Assembly: GCA_964620805.1 (NCBI GenBank)
Contig: CAZUJQ010000002.1
Span: forward strand, 6,253-70,252
DNA from: an uncultured Planctomycetales bacterium
GTDB taxonomy: Bacteria > Omnitrophota > Gorgyraeia > Zapsychrales > JAHFFX01
DNA: 64,000 nucleotides
Direction of reading: 5' to 3'
Shown here: positions 4,297 to 59,783 of the stretch, one piece after another
How the letters are laid out: each line of letters begins with the position of its first letter
Position numbering within the stretch: the first letter of the stretch is position 1
Notes under the pieces: model-generated
Seen by the model: the letters and a program-made list of their open reading frames with translations, nothing else
What the model was told of the DNA's origin: nothing
The model's database searches: none
Position numbers and translations under genes: made by a program

Positions 4297-4299
4297 TAA

Positions 4300-13283: not shown

Positions 13284-15568
13284 ATCTCCTCATAAAGCCG
13301 TTCGTATTTCTCAACCATGTGCTCCAAGGAATAATGCTTTCGGATGAAATCCGAAGCCTCCCGGCCCATCTCTAAAAAGAGACTTCTGTCTTTAACGACC
13401 CGACCCAGGACCTTGACCAATCCGGTGACATCCCCCGGTGCGACAAGAAATCCGTTTTTGCCGTGCCAAATGATTTGCGGGATCCCTCCCACTTTTGTGG
13501 CCACAACTAGACGGGCACAGGCCATGGCCTCCAAAAGCGATAGAGGCACGCCTTCGGTTAAGGAGGTTAAGACAAAGATATCCAGAGCCGGGTAGAGGGA
13601 TGAGATGTCATCGATTAAGCCGGTAAAAAGGATGTGCTTCTCTAAATTTTTGTCCCGGACCAAGGCTTTCAAATAAGTCTCCTCTGGGCCATCGCCCACG
13701 ATCAGAAATTTAACAAGGGGGAACTCTTTTTGGATTTGGTCAGCCGCTTCGATCAACATCGCTTGATTTTTTTCGCGGCTCAGGCGCCCCACCGTGCCGA
13801 TCACGGCTTCTTCGTCCGAGATCCCATAACGGCTCCGAGCCGTTTTTCTTAAAACCGGATCATAGGAAAAGCGGTTCACATCCAGGCCGTTTGGAATCAC
13901 CTGTCTTTTTTGCGCCTTCAAATCCGGCAGGATGTTCTCAGCCACAACAACCACCCGACGAAAAAATGCCTTTAAAAGCCACCTGTCCAGTTTTTCATAC
14001 CAACGGACCGGCCGGGACATTTTTGTGTATCCATGGACCGTGGCGAGGAGGGGAACACCGTTTCCAGCCGTTGCCAGCAATCCCATAAGATCGGATTTGT
14101 AGTTGTGGGTATGGACAATATCAATTCGGTTTTGCCGGATAAATTTCTTTAGTAGCCGGCTGGTCCTCCAATCCCATCGTCCCCGGCTTTTAAATAAGGC
14201 GGTCTTCAGCCCCGCCTCCCGGGCCTTGTGGACAATCTCCAGATGAGGATTTCTCTCATCTTCGATGGCACCGATCATGGGGATAAATTTCCCGTGGTTC
14301 AAATGACGGGCCAGTGACAGGGCCACCCGCTCTGCGCCGAAAAAGCCTCCGCTGCTTATAAAATGTAAAACTTTTTTTATTAAAAGGGCCTGATAAAAAT
14401 TTTCGTATTCCCTCATCATCTGAGGAATGGTAAATTCTTTCTGGGCTCTTTGTCGTGCGTTTTGGCCCATGCTTTGTCTTTTCTCGGGATCCTCAATGAG
14501 TGTGAGCAAGGCCTCCTTTAAGGCCCGGGAATCGCCGGGGGCCACCAAAAGGCCATCCACCCCCTCCCGGATGAGTTCGGGATTGCCGCCCACACGGGTG
14601 GCGACCACGGCCTTGCCGGCCGCCATGTATTCTAAGATGGCGTTGGAGGTGCCTTCGCTCAAAGAGGGCAACACACAGATATCCGCGGCCTCGATAAAAC
14701 GCGAGACATCTTCGCGTTTTCCAAGAAAAAGGACATGCCTTTCCAATCTCTTTTTTCTGATGATCTCTTGTAGCTTTCCCCCCATTTTGTCTTCACCAAT
14801 CAACGCCAATCGGACCCGCGGATGGTCTACCACGATCTCCGGCAAGGCCTCGATGAGATAGATATGCCCTTTGACTGGCCGAAGATTCGCCACATGCACA
14901 ATTAAGGAAATGGGGTCACACCCCATTTCCCCACTTGAGGGAAATGGGGTGTGACCCCATTTTATTGGTGATTCCACGCCGTTATAGATCACCTCAATCC
15001 GCTCCGCGGGGATTCCCTCTTCTTTCATCATCCTCTCTTTTACGGCACCGGCCACCGCAATGAAGGTGTGCACCCAGCGGTTGATCAACTTGTAGGCGCT
15101 TCGATGAATGGGCTTGCGGCAGAACCCCATGTCCCGCCGGTTCGACACAATATGACGGACTCCCGCCCAATGCGCCCAGAACGTGCCCCAGATATCTGAT
15201 CCGAAATGATAGGTTTGGAGGATCTGGATGCGGTTGGCTTTGAGAAACCGCATAAAGCGGAGGCCCTGCACCATCCCCGAGATCCCGTAGATTCTCACCA
15301 CGCGGAAAACCTGGAATTCGCAGCCCGCCTCCCGCATCAGCTGTTGGGTGGACTCACAGATAGGATTCAGGCTGAGAACGAACACTCGATACCGTGAAGG
15401 GTCAAGATGAGAGATGAGCTGGTAAATCTGCTTTTCTGCCCCGGCCTGGAGGTCTTCCAGGACGTCGGTGAGCAATGCTAGGCGGATGGGTTGAGTGTTT
15501 TTCATATGAATATAAAATGTTGCTAATGTTTCCAAGGTTTCCAAAGTTGCCGAGGTTACCTGATTCAT
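13280..15568 (-). CDS. two-module glycosyltransferase (GT4-GT4 fusion); true start probably ATG at 15505 (MKNTQP...)
   Basis: Two successive GT-B GT4 units in one 762-aa ORF. The first 21 codons (MNQVTSATLETLETLATFYIH) are encoded by the family-A repeat. Carries the in-frame hairpin element at 14905-14962. Confidence 0.6.
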   Translation of the reverse strand: MNQVTSATLETLETLATFYIHMKNTQPIRLALLTDVLEDLQAGAEKQIYQLISHLDPSRYRVFVLSLNPICESTQQLMREAGCEFQVFRVVRIYGISGMVQGLRFMRFLKANRIQILQTYHFGSDIWGTFWAHWAGVRHIVSNRRDMGFCRKPIHRSAYKLINRWVHTFIAVAGAVKERMMKEEGIPAERIEVIYNGVESPIKWGHTPFPSSGEMGCDPISLIVHVANLRPVKGHIYLIEALPEIVVDHPRVRLALIGEDKMGGKLQEIIRKKRLERHVLFLGKREDVSRFIEAADICVLPSLSEGTSNAILEYMAAGKAVVATRVGGNPELIREGVDGLLVAPGDSRALKEALLTLIEDPEKRQSMGQNARQRAQKEFTIPQMMREYENFYQALLIKKVLHFISSGGFFGAERVALSLARHLNHGKFIPMIGAIEDERNPHLEIVHKAREAGLKTALFKSRGRWDWRTSRLLKKFIRQNRIDIVHTHNYKSDLMGLLATAGNGVPLLATVHGYTKMSRPVRWYEKLDRWLLKAFFRRVVVVAENILPDLKAQKRQVIPNGLDVNRFSYDPVLRKTARSRYGISDEEAVIGTVGRLSREKNQAMLIEAADQIQKEFPLVKFLIVGDGPEETYLKALVRDKNLEKHILFTGLIDDISSLYPALDIFVLTSLTEGVPLSLLEAMACARLVVATKVGGIPQIIWHGKNGFLVAPGDVTGLVKVLGRVVKDRSLFLEMGREASDFIRKHYSLEHMVEKYERLYEEI
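14905..14962. repeat. in-frame palindromic hairpin pair (GGAAATGGGGT-cac-ACCCCATTTCC ... GAAATGGGGT-gtg-ACCCCATTT) inside the GT4-GT4 gene
   Basis: Two 11-bp-stem hairpins 8 nt apart; translated in frame as 'KWGHTPFPSSGEMGCDPIS'. The same element recurs at 22584-22665. Confidence 0.75.
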
Positions 15569-15723
15569 CCAACATTCTTAAAGTTGCCCTTAAGTTGCCC
15601 AAGGTTACTGATTGATCCGACAATTTGTTGTTGGGTTAAGGCTTTGCAACCTCAAATAACCTTTCTGCAACCTCAAAAGGGCAACCTCGGCAACCTCGGC
15701 AACATGGGAAACATAGGCAACTT
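15519..15723. repeat. family-A element copy A2
   Basis: Left arm gttgctaat-gtttccaag-gtttccaaa-gttgccgag-gttacc; core tgattcatccaacattcttaaagttgcc; right arm ggcaacctc-ggcaacctc-ggcaacatg-ggaaacata-ggcaactt. Confidence 0.8.
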
Positions 15724-15727
15724 TATT

Positions 15728-17125: not shown

Positions 17126-17150
17126 TTTAAAATTTTGATCAGCCTATCAG

Positions 17151-17323
17151 GTTGCCTTTGTTTCCAGTGTTTCCGAGGTTGCCGATGTTAATTTATTTAC
17201 GTGACATTTTTAAGGTTGCTTAATGTTGCCTGATGTTGTCTTTTCCAACCTTTAGTAACTTCAGGCAACATCTTGAAAGGCAACCTTGGTAACTTTGGCA
17301 ACATAGGAAACATTGGCAACTTT
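17151..17323. repeat. family-A element copy A3 (core variant, leader ORF disrupted)
   Basis: gttgccttt-gtttccagt-gtttccgag-gttgccgat ... ggcaacctt-ggtaacttt-ggcaacata-ggaaacatt-ggcaacttt. Confidence 0.8.
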
Positions 17324-20305: not shown

Positions 20306-20323
20306 TGGCGTTACTCGTAAGTA

Positions 20324-20624
20324 TCATTGCGACCCCGCCGTAGTTTGGCGGGGGAAGCAATCTTTTTACAATTTATCCCATAAATCTCCCCATGTAGAAA
20401 ACGCTGGTATAGGCTTCGTTCTTCTTCGCTCTCAGCCAAAGGCTGATCCGCCTCTGGCAGAAAATGTTCTTGCGTTTGCCCGCCCCGGCTATCGTGACTA
20501 GGCGGGCCAGGGAGCTTCGAAGGAACGATTCCTACGAAGCTCAAACATGAAAGTATTCGAGCGGAGAATAAAAGATTGCTTCGTCGCTTCGCTCCTCGCA
20601 ATGACACATTCCTCGCATGACACA
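20324..20624. repeat. family-B palindromic element core (TCATTGCGA...GAAGCAATCTTTT // AAAAGATTGCTTC...CTCGCAATGACA) split by a ~200-bp insertion that carries further repeat modules
   Basis: Left part 20324-20368 and right part 20568-20606 match the cores at 29731-29838 and 62458-62560. The insert contains 'AGAAAACGCTGGTATAGGCTTCG' (also at 24333) and 'CGAAGGAACGATTCCTACGAAGC'. Confidence 0.65.
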
Positions 20625-20636
20625 TGGAGAATAAGC

Positions 20637-21626: not shown

Positions 21627-21637
21627 TTTGAATATAA

Positions 21638-21802
21638 GTTGCCGATGTTTCCAAGGTTTCCGAGGTTGCCAAGGTTACCCTATTCATCTGACATCCTTTA
21701 AGGTTGATTGAGGTTATCTATGAGGGAAACCTCACGTAACTTTAGGCAACCTCTAAGAGGCAACCTTGGTAACTTTGGCAACATAGGAAACATCGGCAAC
21801 CT
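21638..21802. repeat. family-A element copy A4
   Basis: gttgccgat-gtttccaag-gtttccgag-gttgccaag-gttaccct; core attcatctgacatcctttaaggttg; right arm ggcaacctt-ggtaacttt-ggcaacata-ggaaacatc-ggcaacctg. Confidence 0.8.
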
Positions 21803-21820
21803 GATTGTCGGCTTCTTTTA

Positions 21821-23098
21821 TTAGACGCCGCCCCCAAACGCCTTGATGGCCTCCTGATAAGCCTTAAGCGATTCTTCCACTAATTTTTGATAGGAATAGG
21901 CTGTCCGGACCTTCTTTAACCCGTTGGCAGCCAGTTTAAGGCGTAACGCCTCATCTTGCAAGAGACGCAGGATGGCCTTCGCCAGCATCATAGCGTCCCC
22001 GGGATTAACCAGCAGGCCGTCTTTTTCGTGATGAATCAATTCTTTTAAACCTCCAGCGGTGGAAGCGATGAGGGCGCACCCCGAGGCCATCGCCTCCAGG
22101 GCGCTTAAGGGCAAACCCTCATCGTAAGAAGGCATGATCAGGATGGAACTTTTTCTTAACCAAATTTTAAGCTGATCCGGTGGCAATGTCCCCAGATATT
22201 CAAAATTTTTTGCTCCTATGGCTTCCCGCAGCATTTGACTGTTTTTCTTTCCATCAGAGGAGAAGGCATCAGCGCCCGCGACCGCCAATTGGACGTCAGG
22301 GAATTCTTTAATGACCAGGGGCAGGGCTTGGGCCATCACATCAATGCCTTTTCTTGGAATCAATCGACCGGCAAACAGGATCTGGCAAGGATCTTTTTTT
22401 CCATTGGGAGAGAAAATTTGACTATCAACCGCGTTATAAATGGTCTTGATATTCCGATTAATCCTCCAGACCTGCTTTACGAAATCCGCCGTATCCCTAG
22501 AGACCGCCGCCAAGCCATCCGCCTTAAGCAGGGTGTCCCGCTGCATGGCCCAAGAGATTCGCTCCTTTAAGCTCAAGGTGGTTGAAATGGGGTCACACCC
22601 CATTTCCCTGCCTAACGTTTCCTGGGTTGGAAATGGGGTTGGAAATGGGGTGTGACCCCATTTCCTAGACCATCCGTGCAGGCGAAAAAAGACCGGAAGG
22701 CGATTGTGGCGCCGGGCGTAAATAAACCCTTGCCGGAAATAATCGAAAGTTTCCACGATATCCAGGGCATATTCCGCTTGGACGGACTCGATTTTCTTCG
22801 CCACGGCTTTCGAATACCGCAAATCATTCAAGGGAAGAAACCGCTCAATCTTCCAGACCCCCGGGAAGAGATCGTCATCAAAGGGGACGTGGTGAACAAA
22901 AATATTTTGTCCCAATCGGCCGCGGTTTAAATCCCCTTCGTCCTGGCAAAGGATATGGACGGAGTGCCCCGCCTCACTCAAGGCCCTGGCATAATGGGCC
23001 GTGAAGGTCTCGATCCCGCCGGAATCTTGGTGAAAATTTCGACACAAAAGACAGATGTTCATCGGACTCCCCATCTCTCTCTTACTCAAGGGATTCAA
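21821..23098 (-). CDS. glycosyltransferase family 4
   Basis: GT-B fold, 'ILIMPSYDEGLPLSALEAMASGCALIASTAGG'. Carries the in-frame hairpin element at 22584-22665 ('RKWGHTPFPTPFPTQETLGREMGCDPIS'). Confidence 0.7.
   Translation of the reverse strand: MNPLSKREMGSPMNICLLCRNFHQDSGGIETFTAHYARALSEAGHSVHILCQDEGDLNRGRLGQNIFVHHVPFDDDLFPGVWKIERFLPLNDLRYSKAVAKKIESVQAEYALDIVETFDYFRQGFIYARRHNRLPVFFRLHGWSRKWGHTPFPTPFPTQETLGREMGCDPISTTLSLKERISWAMQRDTLLKADGLAAVSRDTADFVKQVWRINRNIKTIYNAVDSQIFSPNGKKDPCQILFAGRLIPRKGIDVMAQALPLVIKEFPDVQLAVAGADAFSSDGKKNSQMLREAIGAKNFEYLGTLPPDQLKIWLRKSSILIMPSYDEGLPLSALEAMASGCALIASTAGGLKELIHHEKDGLLVNPGDAMMLAKAILRLLQDEALRLKLAANGLKKVRTAYSYQKLVEESLKAYQEAIKAFGGGV
22584..22665. repeat. second copy of the in-frame palindromic hairpin pair (loop cac ... 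loop gtg), here with a 33-nt spacer holding an extra half-arm
   Basis: 'gaaatggggtcacaccccatttcc...ggaaatggggtt ggaaatggggtgtgaccccatttcc'; translated in the same frame as the copy at 14905-14962. Confidence 0.75.
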
Positions 23099-24545: not shown

Positions 24546-24582
24546 GGGGCTCCTAGTATTTTCACTTTAGTTCCAATATAAA

Positions 24583-25150
24583 GTTTCCGATGTTTCCAAA
24601 GTTTCCGAGGTTTCCAATGTTACCTCATTGATTCGAGATGCTTTAAGGTTGCTTAACGTTGTTTCAGGTTAAATTTCATTCTTTCCGGGTGTTGTCCATT
24701 TACCTTTATTGGACGACTTGTTCATGGACTTAAGGTATTGATTACTCATGTAAAGAGCGCTTTTACATAGTTTGGTCAATTGATCGTGTTCTTGAGGATT
24801 GATTAGCTTATCTTCCAAGCAATCATCAATATCTCCGCTTAATTCTTCCAAGGATCCTTGGCTTATGCGTATGGCCTTCAGAAACTCGGCTAAACTTCCT
24901 CGGCTGTAGCCCTCCCTGATATTCTGCTTTGCTGAGCGCGTCGCGCTTCTCATCTCACTGACAAGTCTAATATGGCTTTTTTCAAATCGTGTTATGATAG
25001 CCGCAACTAACTTGCGAAGCTCGCATATGTCTTGATAAAATTTGAGCTTTTCGTATGGTCTTGCTGGCATCTGCAACCTCACATAACTTCTTTGCAACCT
25101 CCAAGAGGCAACCTCGGTAACTTCGGCAACATGGGCAACATCGGCAACCT
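24583..25150. repeat. family-A element copy A5 with the four-helix-bundle gene inserted between core and right arm
   Basis: Left arm 24583-24625 plus core ttgattcgagatgctttaaggttgcttaacg; right arm 25071-25150 begins immediately after the 4HB start codon. Confidence 0.75.
24669..25097 (-). CDS. four-helix-bundle protein (23S rRNA intervening-sequence protein family; probable start at 25070, MPARPY)
   Basis: 'SATRSAKQNIREGYSRGSLAEFLKAIRISQGSLEELSGDIDDCLE' matches the S23/IVS four-helix-bundle family. Sits entirely inside family-A repeat copy A5. Confidence 0.6.
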   Translation of the reverse strand: MQRSYVRLQMPARPYEKLKFYQDICELRKLVAAIITRFEKSHIRLVSEMRSATRSAKQNIREGYSRGSLAEFLKAIRISQGSLEELSGDIDDCLEDKLINPQEHDQLTKLCKSALYMSNQYLKSMNKSSNKGKWTTPGKNEI

Positions 25151-25204
25151 CCTTTTACAGGCTCCTCATATATTCATGAATATTTAAGGCATAGGGCTAA
25201 ATAA

Positions 25205-26632: not shown

Positions 26633-26778
26633 GAACTTGAGTTTGGCAAATTTTCGAATTTGTCGTCGGAAAAGTCTCTCGGATCGCAAAAACAGGTTTT
26701 CGATACCACAAAATTGCTTTCTCGACGAGAACTACCTGAAAATACGGCCCAAAAGCCCGAAAAAGTGCCAAACTCAAG
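26633..26778. mobile_element. MITE-like element copy 1 (146 bp, terminal inverted repeats GAACTTGAGTTTGGCA / TGCCAAACTCAAG), possible 5-bp target duplication AACCG
   Basis: 146/146 identity with 59589-59734 as far as I can align by eye; flanks '...attAACCG|aacttgag...ctcaag|AACCGaat'. Confidence 0.7.
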
Positions 26779-28122: not shown

Positions 28123-28745
28123 GTTCTGCTCAATTCTATCCTTTTATATAGCCTTGCATTGAGAAAGATACATCCGACTGACCAAGTACCGTTGAAGCAT
28201 GAGATAAATCATGTAGCTTTATCTCGACTTTAGACATTTTTGAGCCCCTTAATAAGGCTAGCTCTCATCGAGTGGGTATTTTTAAAAATGAATTTTTGCA
28301 TCTTTGGGATCTAATCAAATGGCTTGGGACATTAAAAAATCCGGCAACTCTGATATGGCCTCGATGAGGCAAACTTTTTAAGAGGCTCCAAAAGCCCCGA
28401 AAAATGTCTAAAGTCGAGTTTATAATATGCAAGATAAGCACTCTCCCGACTGTGTCGGGAGAGTGCACACTAGACCCCGTCGCTTTACTTCGTCCCGTGA
28501 AAGGCTTTGCCTTTCACGGGATTAAATCCCTGAAATCGCGAAGCGATTTCAGGGGACAAAGCGAATCACAGGGGTCACATTGGAATCTCCTGCCTGGGCT
28601 TATCTTTTCCCCCGCGCTTTGTCCCGATGTTACATCGGGACAGCGGGGAATCGGAATTTCGCTTTTGAAATTCCGATGTGACAAGCCTATATAGTAAACC
28701 CCGTAAAGAGGTAAAGGATATGTCCATGGTCATTGAGATAGCGGA

Positions 28746-31666: not shown

Positions 31667-32962
31667 TCAATCCACGATCTCCACCTTGGGGTGCGGCAGA
31701 ATGAATTTAGTCTTATGGTTTCCCCAGGACCTGACCTTCTTGATGATCTCATCCTTATAATTCCAAATCGTCAAAAGGTAATAATCCGGGGGATTGAGCA
31801 TGGCCTCTTCTTCGCTGATCACTTTGATGTTGGCCAAAGGAATATATTTCCCCTGCTTGGTCGGCGTGGAATCCACTACCATGGGAACAAGATCCTTGCG
31901 GATTCCGTAGTAGTTAAAGAGTGTCGTCGATTTCGCTGAGGCGCCGTAGGCGTGGACGCTTTTGCCTTCGGACTTAAGCCGCAAAAGCAGCCGGATCATG
32001 TCTTCCTTGTTTTGCTGAAGACGGGTGCGGAAATCCGCATAATATCCCGGCTGGTGCAGGTCTTTTTCCGATTCCAGATATTTTTTGACCTCTTCGGAGG
32101 TGGGATAGCCCGCGCAGGCCAGTTTGGCCACAAATGTCATGGTTCCACCGTGAATGGCGCTGTGCATCACATCCACCAGAATCATTCCATAACGTTTGAG
32201 GATTTCCGAGATGCTACGCACGGAATAGTAATACATGTGTTCATGATAGACCTGGTCGAACTCCTGCTTGACCATCGTATCCAGAAAATAGGCATTTTCT
32301 ATGATGAGGGTCCCTTCATCCGAGAGAAGGATTTGCACGCCTTCCAGCATGCGCCACGGTTTTTCGTTATGCGCAAAACAATGCCTGGCCACGATCACGC
32401 TCTTACGCCCTTCGAAGGCCAGGAGCCTTTGGGCCGCCTCAGAGTTGAAAAAACTATTGAGGGTTGAGATGCCGCGTTGATTGGCCATGGCCGCCACGTT
32501 GGAAGCAGGATCCACGCCAGTCACGGAGCGCACGTGAGGGGAAACGAATTCCAGAAAACGGCCGATATTGCTTCCGATTTCGAGCAACCGGGATGATGAG
32601 GAAAGAAACCCTTTGCCTTTCAGGAAATCCAGGATTTTCCCGTAATGCGCCGTCAACTCCCCGCTGACCGGAGTGATGTAATTGTAATTATCATAAAGCT
32701 CATGGCTGTCTGCGCAATAACTGAGTTGGGCTGCCGAGCATTGACGACAGATCAAAAGCACCAAGGGATAGATTTTCACCGGATCATGCAGTGAGGAAAC
32801 GAGCGCATTGGCGAAAGGGTGATGCCCCAGATCCAGCAAAACAAAAGTCTTTCCACCGCAGATACGACAATCGATTGTTGGTTCGTGATCCACCGGAATA
32901 CGCTCCGCAGCTACAGGCATAACTGCGGCTGTTTTTGTATCGCTCAGCGATATCTCAGCCAT
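31667..32962 (-). CDS. NDP-sugar C-methyltransferase-like class I SAM methyltransferase with N-terminal Zn-ribbon
   Basis: N-terminal 'CRICGG...CRQC' Cys pairs; 'LLEIGSNIGRFLEFV' SAM motif I; C-terminal C-methyltransferase-type domain (TylCIII/NovU-like architecture). Confidence 0.5.
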   Translation of the reverse strand: MAEISLSDTKTAAVMPVAAERIPVDHEPTIDCRICGGKTFVLLDLGHHPFANALVSSLHDPVKIYPLVLLICRQCSAAQLSYCADSHELYDNYNYITPVSGELTAHYGKILDFLKGKGFLSSSSRLLEIGSNIGRFLEFVSPHVRSVTGVDPASNVAAMANQRGISTLNSFFNSEAAQRLLAFEGRKSVIVARHCFAHNEKPWRMLEGVQILLSDEGTLIIENAYFLDTMVKQEFDQVYHEHMYYYSVRSISEILKRYGMILVDVMHSAIHGGTMTFVAKLACAGYPTSEEVKKYLESEKDLHQPGYYADFRTRLQQNKEDMIRLLLRLKSEGKSVHAYGASAKSTTLFNYYGIRKDLVPMVVDSTPTKQGKYIPLANIKVISEEEAMLNPPDYYLLTIWNYKDEIIKKVRSWGNHKTKFILPHPKVEIVD

Positions 32963-32977
32963 GAGAGGTTACCTCCT

Positions 32978-34249
32978 CTATACGTTGCCGAAGGGGAAAG
33001 TAGGGACAGCGCCCACTTTTGAAAAAGTAGGCGCTGTCCCTACTTTCCGAATTTCCTCCCAGGCCCGAAGAGCCAGGCTGTCAGGAATCTCCAAATCCTG
33101 GAAGGTCAAGATTTGCTCGGGTTCAACCGTTCTCTTGACGAGGGCGTTATGCACCAACCCCAAGGGCATATGCCCCGGATGTTCGGTCATTTTGACCGTC
33201 ACGCCCCGCAAAGAAAAGCTTCCCATGCCATGGGGAATCGATTCTCCCGGTGATAATTTCTTTTTCGCGATCGCGGCGATGCTGACTGTAGGACGGCTAG
33301 AGTTGTTGAGAAGAGCCGATCTTCCTTCAAAAGCCCTGCGAATAGTTTTAGGAATTTCCAGATGGCAGAGAATATGATTTTTAAAGAGCGAATAATAGGG
33401 TCCCTCTCCTAGTTTGAAATAATCCAGGGCCTGCTGCTGCACTTCGTCATGTTCCGCGATTAGAAAAATTTTGAAATGCGATTTGGCGATGACCGTGTAA
33501 TCGCTGATCGCTTGGCCGAGGCGCTTGGCTTCCTCAGCCAGGATATTCACGCACTCCTGAAAATTCTTAGTCTGGGGGCCCAGCATCCCGGTCTGTAGAA
33601 TAGTGGCGTTGAGGCCGTTGGCTATCAAGGCTTGCTCATACTGCATCTTGGTTCCATCGGTCGCGGCTGTGACCATGCCTAAAGTCAATCTCTGTTTCCT
33701 GGACCAAAATTGCATGTTTTCCAAAGACGGATTGGGATCGTAGAATCCCTTGACATTGCCAAAGACCAAGGGCCGAAATCCCATTTGGACAGCGTCCTCA
33801 TGGAGGGCCGCCAGGCAGCCGGGTTGATCTCCTTCGGCCTCGGTCAGATAACCTTTGTCCACAAAAAAAGAACCGGTCGTCACGTGGAATTCAGAGTTCA
33901 TGGTGACGACCGGAAGGCCCGCTTGAAAAGCGCGGTTGACAACCTCGGTGGCATGCAGAACATCGCCGCTACATTCCACGATCAAATCGGAATGGTCGAT
34001 GAGTTCGTCCAGAGAATTGGTCATAAGGTCCGACCGCGGGAATTCCCAACAGGAAGCAATGGGCCGGCGGGTCAAAACTTTGGAGACCGCGAAATCCTGC
34101 ACATTCTGCATGGCGAGCATAAAGCCCCGGGCGATGAATCCTGAGCCGACGACACCGATTTTTTTGATGGAACTTTTCATGGTTTTAAATTGCTCAAATG
34201 TTTCCAATGTTTCCGAAGTTTCCGAGGTTGCCAAGGTTATCTTATTCAT
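32978..34249 (-). CDS. NAD(P)-binding oxidoreductase with C-terminal SAF-like domain (COG4091-like); start probably MKSSIKK at 34180
   Basis: 'IGVVGSGFIARG' Rossmann motif. The first 23 listed codons are repeat-encoded. Confidence 0.4.
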   Translation of the reverse strand: MNKITLATSETSETLETFEQFKTMKSSIKKIGVVGSGFIARGFMLAMQNVQDFAVSKVLTRRPIASCWEFPRSDLMTNSLDELIDHSDLIVECSGDVLHATEVVNRAFQAGLPVVTMNSEFHVTTGSFFVDKGYLTEAEGDQPGCLAALHEDAVQMGFRPLVFGNVKGFYDPNPSLENMQFWSRKQRLTLGMVTAATDGTKMQYEQALIANGLNATILQTGMLGPQTKNFQECVNILAEEAKRLGQAISDYTVIAKSHFKIFLIAEHDEVQQQALDYFKLGEGPYYSLFKNHILCHLEIPKTIRRAFEGRSALLNNSSRPTVSIAAIAKKKLSPGESIPHGMGSFSLRGVTVKMTEHPGHMPLGLVHNALVKRTVEPEQILTFQDLEIPDSLALRAWEEIRKVGTAPTFSKVGAVPTFPFGNV

Positions 34250-34364
34250 TCCGACATTCTTAAGGTTAATTAACGTTGCCTGACGTTTTCAACCTTTTGT
34301 AACTTCGGGTAACCTCTAAAAGGCAACTTCGGCAACGTCGGCAACCTGGGAAACATTGGCAACA
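34190..34364. repeat. family-A element copy A6
   Basis: gtttccaat-gtttccgaa-gtttccgag-gttgccaag-gttatctta; core ttcattccgacattcttaaggttaattaacgttgcc; right arm ggcaacttc-ggcaacgtc-ggcaacctg-ggaaacatt-ggcaacata. Confidence 0.8.
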
Positions 34365-34370
34365 TAATCA

Positions 34371-35402
34371 CTAAGCATCCACCTCCGTAACTTCCATCAC
34401 CTTCTTAACCTCCATAACCTCATTAACCTTAAATTCCCTTTCCTTGAGCTTCTGGAGCCAATCCTCATGCTCGACATACCATTGAATCGTCCGGTCTAAA
34501 CCTTTCTCAAAATCAACAGAAGGCCTCCAGCCCAGTTCATCTTGAATTTTATGAGAATCAATCGCGTAGCGGCGGTCATGTCCCAGGCGATCCTCCACAA
34601 ACTCGATCAAAGACTCCGGTTTTCTTAGTTTTTTCAATAGCAATTTCACGAGATCGATGTTTCGCCATTCGTTGCTCCCCCCGATGTTATAGATCTCCCC
34701 CAACCGGCCTTTTTGCAGGACGACGTCAATCGCCCGGCAATGATTCTCTACGTAGAGCCAATCCCGGACATTCAGCCCGTCCCCGTAGACCGGCAATTTC
34801 TTATTGGCCAGGGCGTTGTTGATCATAAGAGGAATGAGTTTCTCCGGATACTGGTAGGGCCCGTAATTGTTGGAGCAGCGCGTGATGATCGCGGGAAACT
34901 TATATGTTTCATAATAGGATCGGACCAGGCAATCAGAGCCGGCCTTGCTGGCGGAATAAGGGCTGTTGGGCATAAGGGGTGAAGTCTCCAGGAAATAACC
35001 GCTGTGGCCCAAAGTGCCGTAGACCTCGTCCGTTGAGACATGAATGAATCTTTTCACTTGAGCCCTCATGGCCGCCTCTAAAAGATGGTAAGTGCCCAGG
35101 ACATTGGTGCGGACAAAAGCGGAGGCATCCTTGATGCTGCGGTCCACATGGGTTTCCGCGGCAAAATGAACCACATAAGCCGCACCTTCCATGGCCTTCC
35201 AGACATCGTCGAACTCCGCAATGTCTCCCAGGACGAAATTGTAGTGCGGATCGTCTTCTAGATCTCGAAGGTTGTTGAGATTGCCGGCGTAGGTGAGCTT
35301 GTCCAGATTAACGATGGCAACATCGGGATGAGTTCCCATCATATACCGCACAAAGTTTGATCCGATGAATCCGCAGCCACCGGTGACGAGTATTTTTTTC
35401 AT
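34371..35402 (-). CDS. rfbB: dTDP-glucose 4,6-dehydratase
   Basis: 'MKKILVTGGCGFIGSNFVRYM', YxxxK and full-length similarity pattern to RfbB. Confidence 0.8.
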   Translation of the reverse strand: MKKILVTGGCGFIGSNFVRYMMGTHPDVAIVNLDKLTYAGNLNNLRDLEDDPHYNFVLGDIAEFDDVWKAMEGAAYVVHFAAETHVDRSIKDASAFVRTNVLGTYHLLEAAMRAQVKRFIHVSTDEVYGTLGHSGYFLETSPLMPNSPYSASKAGSDCLVRSYYETYKFPAIITRCSNNYGPYQYPEKLIPLMINNALANKKLPVYGDGLNVRDWLYVENHCRAIDVVLQKGRLGEIYNIGGSNEWRNIDLVKLLLKKLRKPESLIEFVEDRLGHDRRYAIDSHKIQDELGWRPSVDFEKGLDRTIQWYVEHEDWLQKLKEREFKVNEVMEVKKVMEVTEVDA

Positions 35403-35431
35403 AGATTCCTTTCAGAAATTAGGGACAGCTC

Positions 35432-36331
35432 CTACTTTTTATAAAAAAATGCATTGTCAGCAAAAGTAGGCGCTGTCCCTAATTTTTCTAGAAACCGCTC
35501 AACGGCGTCCTGCCACGTTGGAGGTGTCATTTTGAGATCATCCGCCAACTTCTTGTTGGACATGGCGGAAAACGCCGGCCGCCGCGCCTGAAGCCTAAAC
35601 GAATCTGCCGGAACCGGGATCAATTCCATCGTCCTTCCGATTCTCTCGAAATAATATCTTGCCCATTCCAGGCGGGAACAATAGCCGCTGTTGGTCAAGT
35701 GATACAGGCCTTCTAATCTCTTGTTTAGCGCCAAAAATGTAAACTCGACCACATCCTCTGTGAAGGTGGGAACGGAGGTCTCATCACAGGCGATTTGAAG
35801 ACGATCGGTATTTTTCGCCCATTCCTCAAGCCGGAAAAGAAAATTATTCTTGCCCTGCCCGAAAAGCCAGCTCAATCGGAATATCAGAAATTGATCCGTG
35901 TATTTCTCAACCGCCTTCTCCCCTTCCCACTTGCTGTGTCCGTACACGCTGATGGGGTCCGGTTGATCCTCTTCTGTGTAAGGGGTCCCTTTCTGGCCGT
36001 TGAAGACGTAATCCGAGCTGAAGTGAACCAGAAATATTCCCTGGCTGTGGCATAGGCGTGCCAGGTTCTCTACCGCTTCCTGGTTGACCTGATAGGCCTT
36101 GGCCTTTTCTTTTTCGGCCTGGTCCACATGATTGAAGGCTGTGCAGTTGATGATGAGATCCGGCCCGATTGTCTGGAGCATGGCCTCCATCTGGGTTTTA
36201 TTCGTGATGTCCAAGTGGGCGTAATCGAAGCCCGCATAAGACACTTTGGACAACTCGAGCTTTCGGACAAATTCCCCTCCAAGCTGGCCTTCGCTTCCGA
36301 GAATCAAAGTTTTCTTATTGGTTTTTATCAT
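35432..36331 (-). CDS. rfbD: dTDP-4-dehydrorhamnose reductase
   Basis: 'LILGSEGQLGGEF' N-terminus, RmlD-type short-chain reductase. Confidence 0.75.
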   Translation of the reverse strand: MIKTNKKTLILGSEGQLGGEFVRKLELSKVSYAGFDYAHLDITNKTQMEAMLQTIGPDLIINCTAFNHVDQAEKEKAKAYQVNQEAVENLARLCHSQGIFLVHFSSDYVFNGQKGTPYTEEDQPDPISVYGHSKWEGEKAVEKYTDQFLIFRLSWLFGQGKNNFLFRLEEWAKNTDRLQIACDETSVPTFTEDVVEFTFLALNKRLEGLYHLTNSGYCSRLEWARYYFERIGRTMELIPVPADSFRLQARRPAFSAMSNKKLADDLKMTPPTWQDAVERFLEKLGTAPTFADNAFFYKK

Positions 36332-36360
36332 AGGTTGCCAATGTTATCTCATTTTATAAA

Positions 36361-36486
36361 TAGGTTAGGTAGTGTGGTAAAGGTTAAGTTGTGAGTTTAG
36401 TAGTGAGGTTAAGAAGTGTGTCAAATGCCGACACTCACTACCCACTACTCACAACTTAACACACTCCCTTACCCTAACCTCACAAC
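36361..36486. repeat. family-E long inverted repeat (left arm C-free, right arm G-free) downstream of rfbC
   Basis: About 55-nt arms: 'ggttaggtagtgtggtaaaggttaagttgtgagtttagtagtgag' versus 'ctcactacccactactcacaacttaacacactcccttaccctaacc'. Confidence 0.7.
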
Positions 36487-36512
36487 CCATCCTTTCGTAG
36501 CTTCAGACAACC

Positions 36513-37097
36513 TTATTGTTGAGCATGCGAGTCAACACGTGCTCCGTAGCTAAAATTGCAATCCGCCTCCTTTAACCGTGGATATTGACTGTCCTTTTCT
36601 GACAGAACGGGCTTTCGGACCGGCCAAGTAATGGCCAGGTCCGGGTCATTCCAAAGGATGCCGCGTTCCTCTTCGGGTGTATAAACCTCTGTACAGTAAT
36701 AAATCACCTGAGCGCGTTTCGAAAGGACGCAGAATCCATGCGCAAATCCTTCCGGAATGTAAAGCATCTTTTTTTGCTCTGAGTTCAGATATTTGGCCAC
36801 CCAGCGCCCGAAATAGGGAGAACCGGATCTTAAGTCCACGGCCACATCAAAGATTTTGCCTTCGACAACGCTGACCATCTTTCCCTGAGCGGCGGGATGC
36901 TTTTGATAATGCAATCCCCTTAAGGTGTCCTGGCTGCTATGAGAATGATTCACTTGCACAAAGGGTTTAAGGATGCCGTTTTGCTGGAATTCCGGGAATT
37001 TATACACTTCGGTAAAATATCCTCGGCTGTCGCGATAGACATCGGACTCGATCTCTAGGACATCGGGGATCTCGTTTTTAAAGAAGCGAAAGGCCAT
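36513..37097 (-). CDS. rfbC: dTDP-4-dehydrorhamnose 3,5-epimerase
   Basis: Cupin-fold RmlC signature 'DSRGYFTEVYK...HYQKHPAAQGKMVSVVEGKIFDVAVDLR'. Confidence 0.8.
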   Translation of the reverse strand: MAFRFFKNEIPDVLEIESDVYRDSRGYFTEVYKFPEFQQNGILKPFVQVNHSHSSQDTLRGLHYQKHPAAQGKMVSVVEGKIFDVAVDLRSGSPYFGRWVAKYLNSEQKKMLYIPEGFAHGFCVLSKRAQVIYYCTEVYTPEEERGILWNDPDLAITWPVRKPVLSEKDSQYPRLKEADCNFSYGARVDSHAQQ

Positions 37098-37131
37098 GGT
37101 TTTCCTTAAATGCTGATTCTAATAATCAGAG

Positions 37132-37250
37132 GGCTGTGAGGTTAAGGTAAGGTAGTGTGTTAAGTAATGTGGTTAAGTAGTGGGTCAGGACTCACTACTC
37201 ACTACCCACAACTAAACTCACTACATAACCTTTACCCCACATCCAGATTT
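37132..37250. repeat. family-E long inverted repeat (second copy) upstream of rfbC
   Basis: 'gtgaggttaaggtaaggtagtgtgttaagtaatgtggttaagtagtggg' (no C) / 'ctcactactcactacccacaactaaactcactacataacctttacccc' (no G). Confidence 0.7.
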
Positions 37251-37300
37251 CTGAATATCAATAATCTCTTCCATCAACTCGTATACTACCAACTCGTATA

Positions 37301-38179
37301 CTACTCTTCCGCTAAAACACGCAAATAGTCGCTATAAGGCGTCTTGATTCCATCCGCCAATCGCAGGAGTTGTTGTTGGTCGATGAATCCCATCCGGTAC
37401 GCCACTTCCTCGATGCAACCGACTTTCAGGCCCTGATGATCTTCCAGGGCCCTGACGAAAGAGGAGGCGTTCAAAAGAGAATCATGGGTTCCGGTGTCCA
37501 GCCACGCATAGCCGCGGCCCAAGAGCGCCACTTTCAATTGCCTGCGGGAGAGGTATTCCATATTGACGTCCGTGATTTCCAGCTCTCCCCGCAGTGAAGG
37601 TTTCAGGGATTTGGTAATGGATACGATGTCCTGATTGTAGAAATACAGACCCGTGACGGCGTAATTGGATTTAGGATTCTTGGGCTTTTCTTCAATGGAA
37701 ACAACATTTTTCTGACCGTCGAATTCCACAACCCCGTAGCGTCCGGGGTCCTTCACGTAATAGGCAAAGACCGTGGCAAAGGGATCACTATCGGCTGTTT
37801 TGAGAAGATCAACGAAGCCGTTCCCAAAAAAGAGATTGTCCCCCAGGATCAAAGCGACATTGCTTTGTCCCAGGAACTTCTCCCCGATGATAAAGGACTC
37901 CGCGATGCCCTTGGGCTCTTCCTGCCTGGCGTATTGGATGTTTATCCCTAAATCCCGGCCGTCTGTGAAAAGATCCTCAAACAAAGGCAGAGCCTGGGAG
38001 GTGGAGATCACCAGAATGTTGCGAATGCCGGCCAGCATCAAAACCGACAGGGGATAATAGATCATCGGTTTATCATAAACCGGCAAAAGCTGTTTGCTGA
38101 CCCGCTTGGTGATGGGATAGAGCCGGGTGGCCTTGCCGCCGGCGAGGATGATGCCTTTTCGTTGTTTATGTTGGGTCAT
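37301..38179 (-). CDS. rfbA: glucose-1-phosphate thymidylyltransferase
   Basis: 'KGIILAGGKATRLYPITKRVSKQLLPVYDKPMIYYPLSVLMLAGI' RmlA signature. Confidence 0.85.
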   Translation of the reverse strand: MTQHKQRKGIILAGGKATRLYPITKRVSKQLLPVYDKPMIYYPLSVLMLAGIRNILVISTSQALPLFEDLFTDGRDLGINIQYARQEEPKGIAESFIIGEKFLGQSNVALILGDNLFFGNGFVDLLKTADSDPFATVFAYYVKDPGRYGVVEFDGQKNVVSIEEKPKNPKSNYAVTGLYFYNQDIVSITKSLKPSLRGELEITDVNMEYLSRRQLKVALLGRGYAWLDTGTHDSLLNASSFVRALEDHQGLKVGCIEEVAYRMGFIDQQQLLRLADGIKTPYSDYLRVLAEE

Positions 38180-38197
38180 TTTTTATTTCCGTAATAA

Positions 38198-38397
38198 GTT
38201 GCCGATGTTTCCAGAGTTTCCGAGGTTTCCGATGTTACCTGATTCATCCGACATCCTTTAAGGTTGCTTAAGGCTGTCTTTCTGAACCTCTTGTAACCTT
38301 AGGGAAACCTCTGAAAAGGCAACCTCGGCAACCTGCCTGCCATTTGCAGTGTCAATCGGCAGGCAGGCATTGGCAACGTTGGAAACATGGGCAACCT
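38198..38397. repeat. family-A element copy A7 (right arm interrupted by a 36-bp palindrome at 38333-38368)
   Basis: gttgccgat-gtttccaga-gtttccgag-gtttccgat-gttacctga; core ttcatccgacatcctttaaggttgcttaagg; right arm ggcaacctc-ggcaacctg-[cctgcctgcc...ggcaggcagg]-ggcaacgtt-ggaaacatg-ggcaacctt. Confidence 0.8.
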
Positions 38398-39350: not shown

Positions 39351-39479
39351 ATATTAACCTTTCCTTTGCTGAGAGCACAGCGCATAGAGCTTAGGGCTAA
39401 TGGCGTATGGCTCATAGCTCATAGCTTTGGGCTGTGGGCTATGGGCCATGAGCTCTACGCCCTTAGCCCTATGCTGACA

Positions 39480-59737: not shown

Positions 59738-59783
59738 TCTACTTCTTTACTTCTGACTTCTGACCTCTGACTTCTGACCTCTC

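What the first reader, a model, noticed from the sequence alone, without database searches (positions are those of the whole stretch)
36361..37250. rfbC is bracketed by two copies of a long inverted repeat whose arms are strictly C-free on one side and G-free on the other
At 36361-36486 and 37132-37250 the left arm (about 55 nt) contains only G/T/A and the right arm only C/A/T. They can pair with many G-U wobbles into a stem of about 50 bp.

The two copies flank the 585-bp rfbC gene exactly, between rfbD and rfbA. A gene bounded by matching long hairpins could be a mobile cassette, a segment excised by RNase III from the rfbABCD polycistron, or a recombination module.

The extreme strand-compositional asymmetry is unusual and argues against simple random palindromes.
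Basis: seen in the sequence. Interest (0 to 1): 0.55.

Follow-up and report, generated by a model that had tools for sequence, protein, structure and literature searches.

The report
Three-letter hairpin repeats bracketing rmlC
The rhamnose gene rmlC of an uncultured Omnitrophota bacterium sits between two inverted copies of a ~120-nt palindromic repeat whose arms each use only three of the four bases. They belong to a genome-wide crowd of long hairpins between genes, so they do not mark a mobile gene cassette, though the RNA is predicted to pair across the gene.

Summary
C-free runs of 71 and 51 nt are each followed by G-free runs of 66 and 56 nt, in the two spacers flanking rmlC (order rmlA-rmlC-rmlD-rmlB, minus strand). 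Each spacer folds into a 42-48 bp imperfect hairpin. "Many G-U wobbles" is wrong: there are 2-6 per hairpin, and most mismatches are A/T transversions.

The two copies are inverted relative to each other (83% identity against 75% in direct orientation). The arms next to rmlC are therefore about 91% complementary. In the thermodynamic model the transcript prefers a roughly 100-bp long-range stalk that loops out rmlC, by 37 kcal/mol.

These hairpins are not special to rmlC. Nearly every spacer in this polysaccharide cluster carries a long hairpin from one of several low-complexity families. A syntenic relative has none. rmlA-rmlC adjacency is conserved in relatives that lack hairpins. No integrase or transposase lies in the window.

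Best reading: lineage-specific REP/MITE-like palindromic repeats that are co-transcribed and may act as processing or stability structures. The strict three-letter composition persists through about 31 substitutions and is unexplained. Function is untested.

The parts
36361..36422 (.). H1 left arm (L1, arm type alpha). G/T/A only, lying inside the C-free run 36351-36421. It is the 3' arm in the rml mRNA.
36423..36429 (.). H1 apical loop (AAATGCC on the plus strand)
36430..36490 (.). H1 right arm (R1; its reverse complement is arm type beta). C/A/T only, lying inside the G-free run 36431-36496. It is the 5' arm in the mRNA and is about 91% complementary to the H2 left arm across rmlC.
37131..37186 (.). 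H2 left arm (L2, arm type beta). C-free from 37135 to 37185. It is the 3' arm in the mRNA.
37189..37246 (.). H2 right arm (R2; its reverse complement is arm type alpha). G-free from 37190 to 37245, with a 7-nt periodic ACTCACT tract at 37190-37224.
36513..37097 (-). rmlC (dTDP-4-dehydrorhamnose 3,5-epimerase, 194 aa), the gene enclosed by the two repeat copies
   Evidence: PF00908, E 3e-69
37301..38179 (-). rmlA (glucose-1-phosphate thymidylyltransferase type, 292 aa), upstream of H2
   Evidence: PF00483
35432..36331 (-). rmlD (dTDP-4-dehydrorhamnose reductase type, 299 aa), downstream of H1. Its last codons and stop codon lie inside a family B hairpin.
36332..36339 (-). 3' half (GGCAACCU in the mRNA) of the closing helix of the rmlC-rmlD spacer, ending immediately before the rmlD AUG
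   Evidence: present in both MFE and centroid structures
36506..36513 (-). 5' half (A-GGUUGUC in the mRNA) of the same closing helix, starting at the last base of the rmlC UAA stop codon
37120..37130 (.). Outer extension of the H2 stem (TAATAATCAGA), pairing with 37250-37260
37250..37260 (.). Partner of the outer extension of the H2 stem (TCTGAATATCA)
37275..37304 (.). Perfect tandem 15-mer (CAACTCGTATACTAC x2) overlapping the rmlA stop codon. Relation to the hairpins is unknown.

Best explanation
What it is. H1 and H2 are two diverged copies of one ~120-nt non-coding imperfect palindrome, and they are inverted relative to each other. They form a low-copy family within a lineage-specific population of long, low-complexity palindromic repeats. 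These repeats fill the spacers between co-directional genes in this deep-branching Omnitrophota genome.

How the composition arises. Each arm is built from a few short C-free words (GGTTAAG, GGTAAGG, GTGAG, GTAGTG, GTGTG) with roughly 7- and 19-nt periodicity. An inverted repeat of a C-free sequence necessarily has one C-free arm and one G-free arm.

What it does (inferred). The repeats entered or expanded in pre-existing short operon spacers and do not delimit a mobile rmlC cassette. They are co-transcribed with rmlA-C-D-B and must fold. They can form two local hairpins of about 45 bp, or the thermodynamically favoured long-range stalk of about 100 bp that loops out the rmlC cistron.

The most likely consequence is endonucleolytic processing (RNase III type) and/or protection from 3' exonucleases. 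That would uncouple rmlC mRNA stability and translation from rmlA and rmlD, as shown for REP, ERIC and Correia elements in other bacteria.

The three-letter arms leave each arm structureless on its own, so only arm-to-arm pairing can form.

Shown versus inferred. Shown: anatomy, relatedness of the copies, inverted orientation, genome-wide context, absence from relatives, predicted folds. Inferred: co-transcription, any processing, and any selective value.
For: Anatomy and relatedness of the copies:
- The composition and the folds are far beyond chance.
- H1 against the reverse complement of H2 is 83% identical, and 90-91% over the outer 30-35 nt of each arm. In direct orientation identity is 75%.
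- The four arms fall into two types (alpha: L1 and rcR2; beta: rcR1 and L2; rc = reverse complement), and some mismatches are shared by both copies.
- The arms are cryptically simple: 19-nt units (D1) and 7-nt units.
- A similar (GTGAGTA)n tract occurs on its own in an unrelated viral contig.

Genome-wide hairpin population:
- At least five hairpin families occur in the window. Seven consecutive spacers from 39.5 kb down to 33 kb carry them in the order D, A, C, C, B, A, B.
- Family A has 9/18-nt periodic arms. In 10 of about 15 non-redundant cases it begins 1-31 nt after a stop codon, in one orientation.
- Other contigs that carry this genome's repeat families hold hairpins with G-free and C-free arms in the opposite order.

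Lineage-specific, not ancestral:
- A syntenic relative (L044) has tight spacers and no long hairpins.
- The rmlA-rmlC junctions in L034 and L038 are 1-4 nt.
- Repeat DNA overlaps gene ends, for example the rmlD stop codon inside a family B hairpin.
- A 145-nt MITE-like element has 100% identical copies at several loci, which shows active repeat mobilisation in this genome.

RNA consequences:
- The global MFE of the 981-nt sense RNA is -350.2 kcal/mol, against -313.1 when only local pairs are allowed.
- The ensemble holds 49 + 42 cross-arm pairs against 0-2 local pairs.
- The inner duplex is 53 bp at -81.8 kcal/mol.
- Arms folded alone give MFE 0 to -2.2 kcal/mol, against -12.1 +/- 5.4 for random 60-mers from the window.
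- A closing helix joins the rmlC stop codon to the rmlD start codon.
- An analogous spacer-spanning hairpin sits in the rmlA-rmlC spacer of another Omnitrophota MAG.

Precedents:
- REPIN hairpins (PMC3116915).
- Correia elements bound or cut by RNase III (PMC2649163).
- REP stabilisation of malE mRNA (my own knowledge, not checked here).
Against: - Only two copies of this family were found, and they are adjacent. An arm profile found nothing else in 379 kb of window plus fetched loci. High copy number, typical of REP and MITE families, is therefore not shown. The rest of the genome was not available.
- No target-site duplication, transposase or RAYT (REP-associated tyrosine transposase) was seen.
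- There are no compensatory double substitutions between the copies. Eight substitutions since duplication broke pairs, so selection on pairing is not demonstrated.
- Simple decay of a selfish palindrome does not explain why none of about 31 inferred substitutions among the arms introduced the excluded base (P about 10^-5.5 under simple models).
- The long-range stalk is an equilibrium prediction. Co-transcriptional folding and ribosomes on rmlC would favour the local hairpins.
- There is no transcript, RNase III or expression evidence of any kind.
Confidence: 0.55

Rival explanations
1. Programmed processing stalk. The inverted pair exists because it works. The two repeats pair across rmlC like the stalks that flank 16S and 23S rRNA. 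RNase III cuts the roughly 100-bp duplex and releases a monocistronic rmlC RNA, setting RmlC output independently of RmlA, RmlD and RmlB.
For: - Cross-arm complementarity (91% and 88%) exceeds within-hairpin complementarity (71-75%).
- Long-range pairing dominates both the MFE and the ensemble.
- Paired columns changed less often than mismatched columns (8 of 42 against 10 of 14).
- The strict three-letter alphabet suggests a constraint.
Against: - Two inverted copies of an old imperfect palindrome give this pattern automatically, and inverted orientation has a prior chance of about 50%.
- No compensatory changes were found.
- The only other rmlC with a similar upstream hairpin has no partner downstream.
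- Two other relatives have no spacer at all.
- Family A copies also show generic cross-copy complementarity.
- There are no RNA data.
Confidence: 0.15
2. Purely selfish or neutral repeat DNA with no effect on expression that matters to the cell. It would be a palindromic MITE/REPIN-like element that hopped locally once, and the composition merely reflects slippage of C-free words.
For: - The hairpins are lineage-specific and absent from the syntenic relative.
- Repeats overlap gene ends.
- An active MITE-like element is present.
- There is no covariation.
- The arms are cryptically simple.
Against: - A 45-100 bp RNA duplex inside an operon cannot be inert for ribosomes and RNases.
- The alphabet stayed strictly three-letter through about 31 substitutions.
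- Family A shows an orientation bias and sits next to stop codons.
- No transposase or target-site duplication was found.
Confidence: 0.2
3. Transcription-level punctuation. Each hairpin ends the upstream transcript, and the A/T-rich sequence after it starts the next one. Alternatively, the G-free, C-rich, structureless arm is a Rho loading (rut-like) site that the other arm masks, giving conditional polarity within a long polysaccharide operon.
For: - Promoter-like hexamers (TTAACC-18-TAGAAT and TTACCA-18-TAAAAT) sit at equivalent places at the 3' edge of both hairpins on the sense strand.
- The G-free arms are 56-66 nt, about 35% C, and have no self-structure. From general knowledge, this matches what rut sites look like.
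Against: - No U-tract follows either hairpin, and no terminator-like site was called there.
- The promoter-like count for the region is below the shuffle expectation (5 against 8.3).
- The implied 5' UTRs would be only about 12 nt.
- Some family A spacers leave only 3-18 nt before the next start codon, which argues for polycistronic read-through.
- The related family E has the opposite arm order.
Confidence: 0.07
4. DNA-level cassette or switch. rmlC with its flanking ~120-bp inverted repeats is a mobilisable unit (integron attC-like, or a MITE-pair composite), or an invertible segment that switches rhamnose synthesis on and off.
For: - The gene is flanked by inverted repeats that are 83-91% identical.
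- The rml block as a whole is absent from the syntenic relative, so cluster content is fluid.
Against: - No integrase, invertase or transposase in 64 kb.
- The attC R''/R' consensus in the required orientation is impossible in a C-free 5' arm.
- No target-site duplication was found.
- rmlA-rmlC adjacency is conserved without repeats elsewhere.
- rmlC composition matches its neighbours.
- The longest exact identity between copies is about 12 nt, too short for RecA-dependent recombination.
- Three assemblies from different samples carry the same orientation and an identical sequence.
Confidence: 0.03

Closest known systems
REP/BIME elements and REPINs (REP doublets forming hairpins) of Enterobacteria and Pseudomonas
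   Same: - Non-coding imperfect palindromes confined to spacers between genes, often inside operons.
- Several sequence families per genome.
- Long hairpins of about 70-110 nt predicted in ssDNA or mRNA.
- Known to act as mRNA stabilisers (PMC3116915, PMC3337134; the malE-malF REP case is from my own knowledge).
   Different: - In a REPIN each arm contains a REP that is itself a short palindrome. Here the arms cannot self-pair at all (MFE about 0).
- The arms here are periodic, low-complexity and three-letter.
- Only two copies were found.
- No RAYT is known.
- REPINs show common compensatory changes; these show none.
Correia repeat-enclosed elements (Neisseria) and ERIC elements (Yersinia and other enterobacteria)
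   Same: - MITE-like palindromic elements of about 100-150 nt, co-transcribed with flanking genes.
- Their RNA hairpins are bound or cut by RNase III and alter the expression of neighbours (PMC2649163).
- This is the closest functional analogue of the proposed mechanism.
   Different: - No sequence similarity.
- CREE has defined 26-bp terminal inverted repeats, a TA target duplication, an IHF site and hundreds of copies. None of these is seen here.
- CREE arms use all four bases.
BOX elements of Streptococcus pneumoniae
   Same: - Modular intergenic elements in which a sub-unit is tandemly reiterated a variable number of times.
- The whole element folds into a stable structure (my own knowledge).
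   Different: - The BOX modules boxA, boxB and boxC are about 45-60 nt and are not three-letter.
- They come from a different phylum and have no sequence relation.
rRNA operon processing stalks (RNase III)
   Same: Complementary sequences on both sides of a functional RNA pair over a long distance. They form a helix that is the RNase III substrate and releases the enclosed RNA. The predicted 53 + 46 bp stalk around rmlC has this geometry.
   Different: - Here the enclosed RNA is a protein-coding cistron.
- Each flank can also fold back on itself.
- There is no conservation across genomes and no cleavage evidence.
Integron attC sites and gene cassette arrays
   Same: Co-oriented genes, each followed by an imperfect palindrome of 60-140 nt that folds as a single strand.
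   Different: - No IntI is present.
- The R''/R' core sites are not present in the required orientation.
- Neighbouring palindromes belong to unrelated families.
- The genes form a conserved biosynthetic pathway.

Membership tests
REPIN / REP (RAYT-mobilised) | Each arm contains a conserved REP, itself a short imperfect palindrome | tested here: not met
   Arms folded alone have MFE 0 to -2.2 kcal/mol. C-free and G-free arms cannot form G-C pairs within themselves.
REPIN / REP (RAYT-mobilised) | Two units in inverted orientation with a spacer, predicted to form a long hairpin in extragenic space | tested here: met
REPIN / REP (RAYT-mobilised) | Tens to hundreds of near-identical copies per genome | tested here: inconclusive
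   Only 2 copies in the 64-kb window, and none in another ~315 kb of fetched loci. The rest of the genome was not retrievable.
REPIN / REP (RAYT-mobilised) | Cognate RAYT (Y1 transposase) gene in the genome | not testable with these tools
   None among the window ORFs scanned with Pfam. The whole genome is not available.
MITE (including Correia/CREE) | Terminal inverted repeats flanked by a target-site duplication | tested here: not met
   Inspection of the flanks shows no direct repeat at the ends of H1. H2 has only a 7-nt AATAATC on both sides, at unequal distances from the ends of the palindrome.
MITE (including Correia/CREE) | Short non-coding element present at some loci and absent at the homologous empty site in relatives | tested here: met
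   The rmlA-rmlC junction is 1-4 nt in L034 and L038. The syntenic L044 lacks long hairpins. These relatives are distant, with RmlC at most 69% identical.
Integron attC / gene cassette | R'' (RYYYAAC) at the ORF-proximal end and R' (GTTRRRY) at the distal end of the ORF-sense strand | tested here: not met
   The sense-strand 5' arm is C-free, so it cannot contain RYYYAAC.
Integron attC / gene cassette | Integron integrase (IntI) nearby, or an array of attC sites of one type | tested here: not met
   No tyrosine recombinase in the window. Neighbouring spacers carry unrelated hairpin families.
Intrinsic (Rho-independent) terminator | G+C-rich stem followed by a U-tract | tested here: not met
   No terminator-like site was called at either hairpin on the minus strand. 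The tails are CCUAUUUAUAAAAU and AGCCCUCUGAUUAUUAG.
RNase III processing stalk | Long-range complementary flanks forming a helix of at least 20 bp around the released RNA | tested here: met
   Predicted 53-bp and 46-bp helices that dominate the MFE and the ensemble. This is a prediction only.
RNase III processing stalk | Cleavage by RNase III in vivo or in vitro | not testable with these tools
   No transcript data are available.
Invertible DNA switch | Adjacent site-specific invertase, and both orientations present in the population | tested here: not met
   No recombinase in the window. Assemblies from three samples carry the same orientation. Read-level data were not examined.
Any Rfam family | Match at or above the gathering score | tested here: not met
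   0 matches across the whole window. Only sub-threshold matches to miRNA-precursor models, which reflect generic long hairpins.

The most novel reading that the evidence does not exclude
This Omnitrophota lineage uses a programmed system of intercistronic RNA structures. These are long stems, reaching from near the upstream stop codon towards the next start codon, built from periodic (7, 9, 18 or 19 nt) words. In some families the alphabet is strictly three-letter, so each arm is structureless until it meets its partner.

In the rml operon an inverted pair would form a ~100-bp stalk that excises or insulates a single cistron. This would be a protein-gene counterpart of rRNA processing stalks. 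The G-free arm could also be a masked Rho loading site.

The alphabet constraint would then be a selected design rule, not a by-product of slippage.
Probability: 0.12. Interest if true: 0.7.

Novelty: new variant of a known kind. Interest (0 to 1): 0.42.

Why it matters
Palindromic intergenic repeats are known mainly from Proteobacteria and Firmicutes. Nothing comparable turned up in the literature searches for Omnitrophota, a phylum known almost only from metagenomes.

Three features would interest people who study bacterial repeats and mRNA processing:
- The density of long hairpins: about one per spacer across a 35-kb polysaccharide cluster.
- Arms made of periodic short words.
- In this family, a three-letter alphabet that survived about 31 substitutions.

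Natural RNAs whose two strands are individually structureless follow the three-letter rule used in synthetic nucleic-acid design. A natural example would be worth understanding.

There is also a practical point. These repeats mislead gene callers, giving starts and stops inside hairpins, and can be mistaken for mobile cassettes.

If the predicted stalk around rmlC is real, it would be a simple and testable case of cistron-specific processing inside a biosynthetic operon.

Tried and rejected
- **Other copies in reference genomes.** I spent the single genome-contig scan on the abundant family A motif, to sample this genome. It gave only 2 chance hits, so the genome and close relatives are not among the GTDB representatives.
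- **Metagenome scan with the same motif.** It gave 27 loci. Several carry this genome's repeat families, and four of them hold 100% identical copies of its 145-nt element. None holds a family C arm.
- **Viral scan with the family C motif.** One hit, which is only a (GTGAGTA)n tract with no partner arm.
- **Strain variation.** Contigs from two other samples are identical across H1 and therefore uninformative.
- **Strand of action from G-U against A-C asymmetry.** 4 against 2 events, too few to decide. The sense RNA is 2-9 kcal/mol more stable, but the sense strand is G-richer throughout the window.
- **Covariation.** None was found. The first test, using a consensus structure, was circular, so I redid it with single-sequence structures and a four-arm column analysis.
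- **Sliding-window MFE and local-fold census of hairpins.** Too noisy to be useful.
- **Small-ORF idea.** The family A core carries AAGGA-N6-ATG and a short ORF that ends in ATGA at the rmlA start. The ATG is missing in 5 of 12 copies, so I rejected it as a conserved coding feature. The family C sense 5' arms have stop codons in all three frames.
- **Translational coupling through a stop-to-start closing helix.** It holds for H1, for the other Omnitrophota MAG and for some family A copies. It fails for H2 and for families B and D, so it is not general.
- **Integron attC, intrinsic terminator, invertible switch and Rfam families.** All were tested and not met (see the membership tests).
- **Literature.** No description of such repeats in Omnitrophota was found.
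Full report
**1. The observation**

The plus strand has no C at 36351-36421 (71 nt) and no G at 36431-36496 (66 nt). It again has no C at 37135-37185 (51 nt) and no G at 37190-37245 (56 nt). In 200 first-order Markov simulations of a 64-kb window, the longest C-free or G-free run averaged about 40 nt, with a maximum of 63.

The two regions fold as long hairpins on either strand, as RNA or DNA. Z-scores are -4.8 to -6.7, and no shuffle of 200 folds as well.

Pfam assigns the flanking ORFs on the minus strand:
- rmlA: 37301-38179
- rmlC: 36513-37097
- rmlD: 35432-36331
- rmlB: 34371-35402

The coordinates, the composition and the bracketing of a 585-bp rmlC are therefore correct.

One detail is wrong. 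The local hairpins have 42-48 base pairs, of which only 2-6 are G-U. Arm-to-arm mismatches are mostly transversions.

**2. Anatomy of the two copies**

The four arms, all written in the G/T/A alphabet, align almost without gaps. They fall into two types:
- alpha: L1 and the reverse complement of R2
- beta: L2 and the reverse complement of R1

So H1 is alpha-loop-beta' and H2 is beta-loop-alpha'. H2 is an inverted copy of H1.
- Identity is 83% inverted against 75% direct.
- It reaches 90-91% over the outer 30-35 nt of each arm.
- Within a hairpin the arms match at only 71-75%.

Some mismatches are shared by both copies and so predate the duplication. Four alignment columns carry conserved A/T mismatches.

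The arms are cryptically simple. They contain 19-nt units of the form AGGTTAAGnnGTGnGnnnA (D1) and 7-nt units (ACTCACT x5).

Of 56 fully aligned columns:
- 34 are identical in all four arms.
- 8 carry a single change that breaks a pair in one hairpin.
- 10 carry several changes.
- None is compensatory.

A minimum of 31 substitutions separates the arms, and none created a C. Under simple substitution models this has a probability of about 10^-5.5. Something keeps the alphabet at three letters: either a constraint, or divergence by reshuffling of C-free words rather than by point mutation. I cannot tell which.

A direct consequence of the alphabet is that each arm alone has essentially no structure. 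MFE is 0 to -2.2 kcal/mol, against -12.1 +/- 5.4 for random 60-mers from the window.

**3. Context**

The window comes from a metagenome-assembled genome. Contigs with identical sequence occur in at least three JGI samples and one ENA assembly.

Named homologues of its sigma-54 are all Candidatus Omnitrophica, and the best non-self identity is 54%. RmlC has no relative above 69% identity. This is a deep-branching Omnitrophota with no close sequenced relative.

The window is mostly one large polysaccharide cluster. It encodes Wza/Wzz/Wzy-type proteins, many glycosyltransferases and a Wzm/Wzt transporter. It has no integrase or transposase.

The key finding is that long hairpins are everywhere in its spacers:
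- **Family A** has arms made of 9/18-nt periodic GTTGCCnnn/GTTTCCnnn words. It occurs at 4297-4387, 15516-15727, 17126-17312, 21627-21820, 34198-34365 and 38198-38395.
- **Family B** is at 32995-33048 and 35416-35485.
- **Family D** is at 39388-39475.
- **Family C**, the subject of the finding, is at the two spacers around rmlC.

From 39.5 kb down to 33 kb, seven successive spacers carry hairpins in the order D, A, C, C, B, A, B. Being bracketed by hairpins is therefore the rule here, not a property of rmlC.

Family A elements begin 1-31 nt after the upstream stop codon, in a fixed orientation, in 10 of about 15 non-redundant cases. Repeat DNA overlaps gene ends: the rmlD stop codon lies inside a family B hairpin, and two gene starts are called inside family A elements.

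A 145-nt element with 25-nt terminal inverted repeats is 100% identical at two window sites and in four other contigs. Repeats are therefore actively copied in this genome.

**4. Other copies and relatives**

The genome is not among the GTDB representatives. A metagenome scan with the family A motif returned 27 loci, several from the same genome or near relatives.

A profile of the four arms found nothing else in 379 kb. Family C is therefore low-copy as far as can be seen.

Those loci do hold another family with arms of about 55 nt (family E). In it the 5' arm is G-free or G-poor and the 3' arm is C-free or C-poor (CCAAAT/ACAAT words). Three-letter arms recur, and in both polarities.

Relatives compare as follows:
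- A syntenic relative (L044, sigma-54 48% identical) has 15-90 nt spacers and no long hairpins. It also lacks the rml block at this position.
- In three other genomes rmlC directly follows rmlA. Two have 1-4 nt spacers.
- One Omnitrophota MAG has a 216-nt spacer with a 19-nt periodic AAGGTTG-word hairpin. Its base pairs the sequence just after the rmlA stop codon with the rmlC Shine-Dalgarno region. It has no second copy after rmlC.

The hairpins are therefore lineage-specific additions to an older rmlA-rmlC unit. rmlC is not an imported cassette, and its G+C content matches its neighbours.

**5. What the RNA would do**

Because the copies are inverted, the two arms adjacent to rmlC are nearly perfect complements. 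The predicted duplex is 53 bp at -81.8 kcal/mol. The two outer arms also pair (46 bp, -57.4 kcal/mol). Each local hairpin scores about -55 kcal/mol.

For the whole 981-nt sense RNA from the rmlA stop codon to the rmlD start codon:
- The MFE is -350.2 kcal/mol and uses the long-range pairing.
- Allowing only local pairs gives -313.1 kcal/mol.
- The ensemble holds 49 + 42 cross-arm pairs and 0-2 local pairs.

Three cautions apply:
- Any two inverted copies of an old imperfect palindrome produce this result.
- Family A copies also show generic cross-copy complementarity.
- Co-transcriptional folding and translation of rmlC would favour the local hairpins.

In the H1 spacer, an additional 8-bp helix pairs the last base of the rmlC UAA plus GGUUGUC with GGCAACCU just before the rmlD AUG. 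A similar stop-to-start closure is seen in some family A copies and in the other MAG. It is absent at H2 and in families B and D, so it is not general.

No U-tract follows the hairpins. The promoter-like hexamers at their 3' edges are within chance expectation.

**6. Comparison with known systems**

Rfam has no match: nothing at gathering score, and only sub-threshold miRNA-precursor look-alikes.

The nearest kinds are REP/REPIN, Correia/ERIC and BOX elements (PMC3116915, PMC3337134, PMC2649163). Shared features are spacer location, several families per genome, long hairpins and, for Correia elements, RNase III effects.

Defining features that fail here:
- REP units are themselves palindromic, whereas these arms cannot self-pair.
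- No target-site duplication was found.
- High copy number is not shown.
- No transposase is known.

Integron attC, intrinsic terminator and invertible switch were each tested and not met. The literature searches returned no description of such repeats in Omnitrophota.

**7. Verdict**

The feature is real and far from chance, and its composition is unusual. It is best filed as a new variant of intergenic palindromic repeats.

- The cassette and recombination reading is not supported.
- The RNase III reading is physically plausible but untested.
- The cause of the strict three-letter alphabet is unexplained.

Interest is moderate. The class of feature is familiar. The lineage, the hairpin density, the periodic word structure, the alphabet constraint and the predicted stalk around a single cistron are worth a follow-up once the full genome and transcript data are in hand.

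Noticed in passing
window 4297-4387, 15516-15727, 17126-17312, 21627-21820, 34198-34365, 38198-38395 (half copies near 24580-24621 and 25107-25151): Family A elements are 90-200-nt hairpins. Their arms are tandem 9/18-nt units (GTTGCCnnn/GTTTCCnnn against GGCAACnnn/GGAAACnnn) around a conserved core (AACCTTAAAGGATGTCGGATGAAT). In 10 of about 15 non-redundant cases they start 1-31 nt after a stop codon, in one orientation.
   Followed up: partly
window 38179-38250 (also 34249 and 15568): The family A core carries AAGGA-N6-ATG. From it a short ORF (MNQVTSETSETLETSATYYGNKK) runs through the 3' arm and ends in a TGA overlapping the rmlA ATG (ATGA). At two other copies it is in frame with the downstream gene, and gene callers start the gene there. 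The ATG is missing in 5 of 12 copies, so this is probably not a conserved peptide. It does cause doubtful gene starts.
   Followed up: partly
window 59592-59736 and 26636-26778; L007, L008, L012, L014: A ~145-nt element with 25-nt terminal inverted repeats (AGAACTTGAGTTTGGCAAATTTTCG...) is 100% identical at two window sites and in four other metagenome contigs. It looks like a recently active MITE.
   Followed up: partly
window 35416-35485 and 32995-33048: Family B is a near-perfect (96%) 24-26-bp palindrome (AGGGACAGCGCC...AAAAGTAGG). The copy at 35416-35485 contains the last codons and the stop codon of rmlD, so repeat DNA supplies the end of the ORF.
   Followed up: no
window 34388-34445: A 58-nt G-free tract (C-free on the sense strand) with 18-nt periodicity lies at the 3' end of rmlB. 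It uses family C-like words (GAGGTTA, AAGGTTAA) and encodes a repetitive C-terminal tail (KEREFKVNEVMEVKKVMEV). It is a lone arm with no complementary partner.
   Followed up: no
window 14908-14962 and 22584-22664: Perfect 24-nt inverted repeats (GAAATGGGGTCACACCCCATTTCC) lie inside two glycosyltransferase ORFs, next to a 12-nt tandem repeat (GGGTTGGAAATG) at 22624-22651.
   Followed up: no
window 37275-37304: A perfect tandem 15-mer (CAACTCGTATACTAC x2) overlaps the rmlA stop codon, just upstream (in the mRNA) of hairpin H2.
   Followed up: no
window 39388-39475: Family D is a 38-bp-arm hairpin made of GCTCATAGC/GCTATGGGC words, between the ParA-like ATPase gene and the epimerase gene. Related copies occur in L024 and L027.
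   Followed up: no
L013 2295-2434, L018 6317-6456, L023 1070-1231, L024 1093-1201, L029 6114-6247, L030 6998-7150: Family E hairpins occur in contigs fetched by the family A motif, from samples that also hold this organism. Arms are 50-70 nt, with the 5' arm G-free or G-poor (CCAAAT/ACAAT words) and the 3' arm C-free or C-poor. This is the opposite polarity to family C.
   Followed up: partly
window 20306-20636 and 28208-28436: Long, strongly structured non-coding spacers. The first is 331 nt with MFE about -122 to -133 kcal/mol. Neither has an Rfam match, and their nature is unknown.
   Followed up: no
window 31667-38179 compared with L044 3497-3513: In the syntenic relative the epimerase gene is followed directly by a methyltransferase and the ABC transporter. 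In this genome rmlA-C-D-B, a DRL-type oxidoreductase, another methyltransferase and an AAA_14/DUF4143 ATPase gene lie between them. The sugar-nucleotide block is a variable insert in the cluster.
   Followed up: partly
window 59749-59782: A heptamer tandem repeat (ACTTCTG x4.9) lies directly beside the MITE-like element, in the spacer after the AMP-binding enzyme gene.
   Followed up: no
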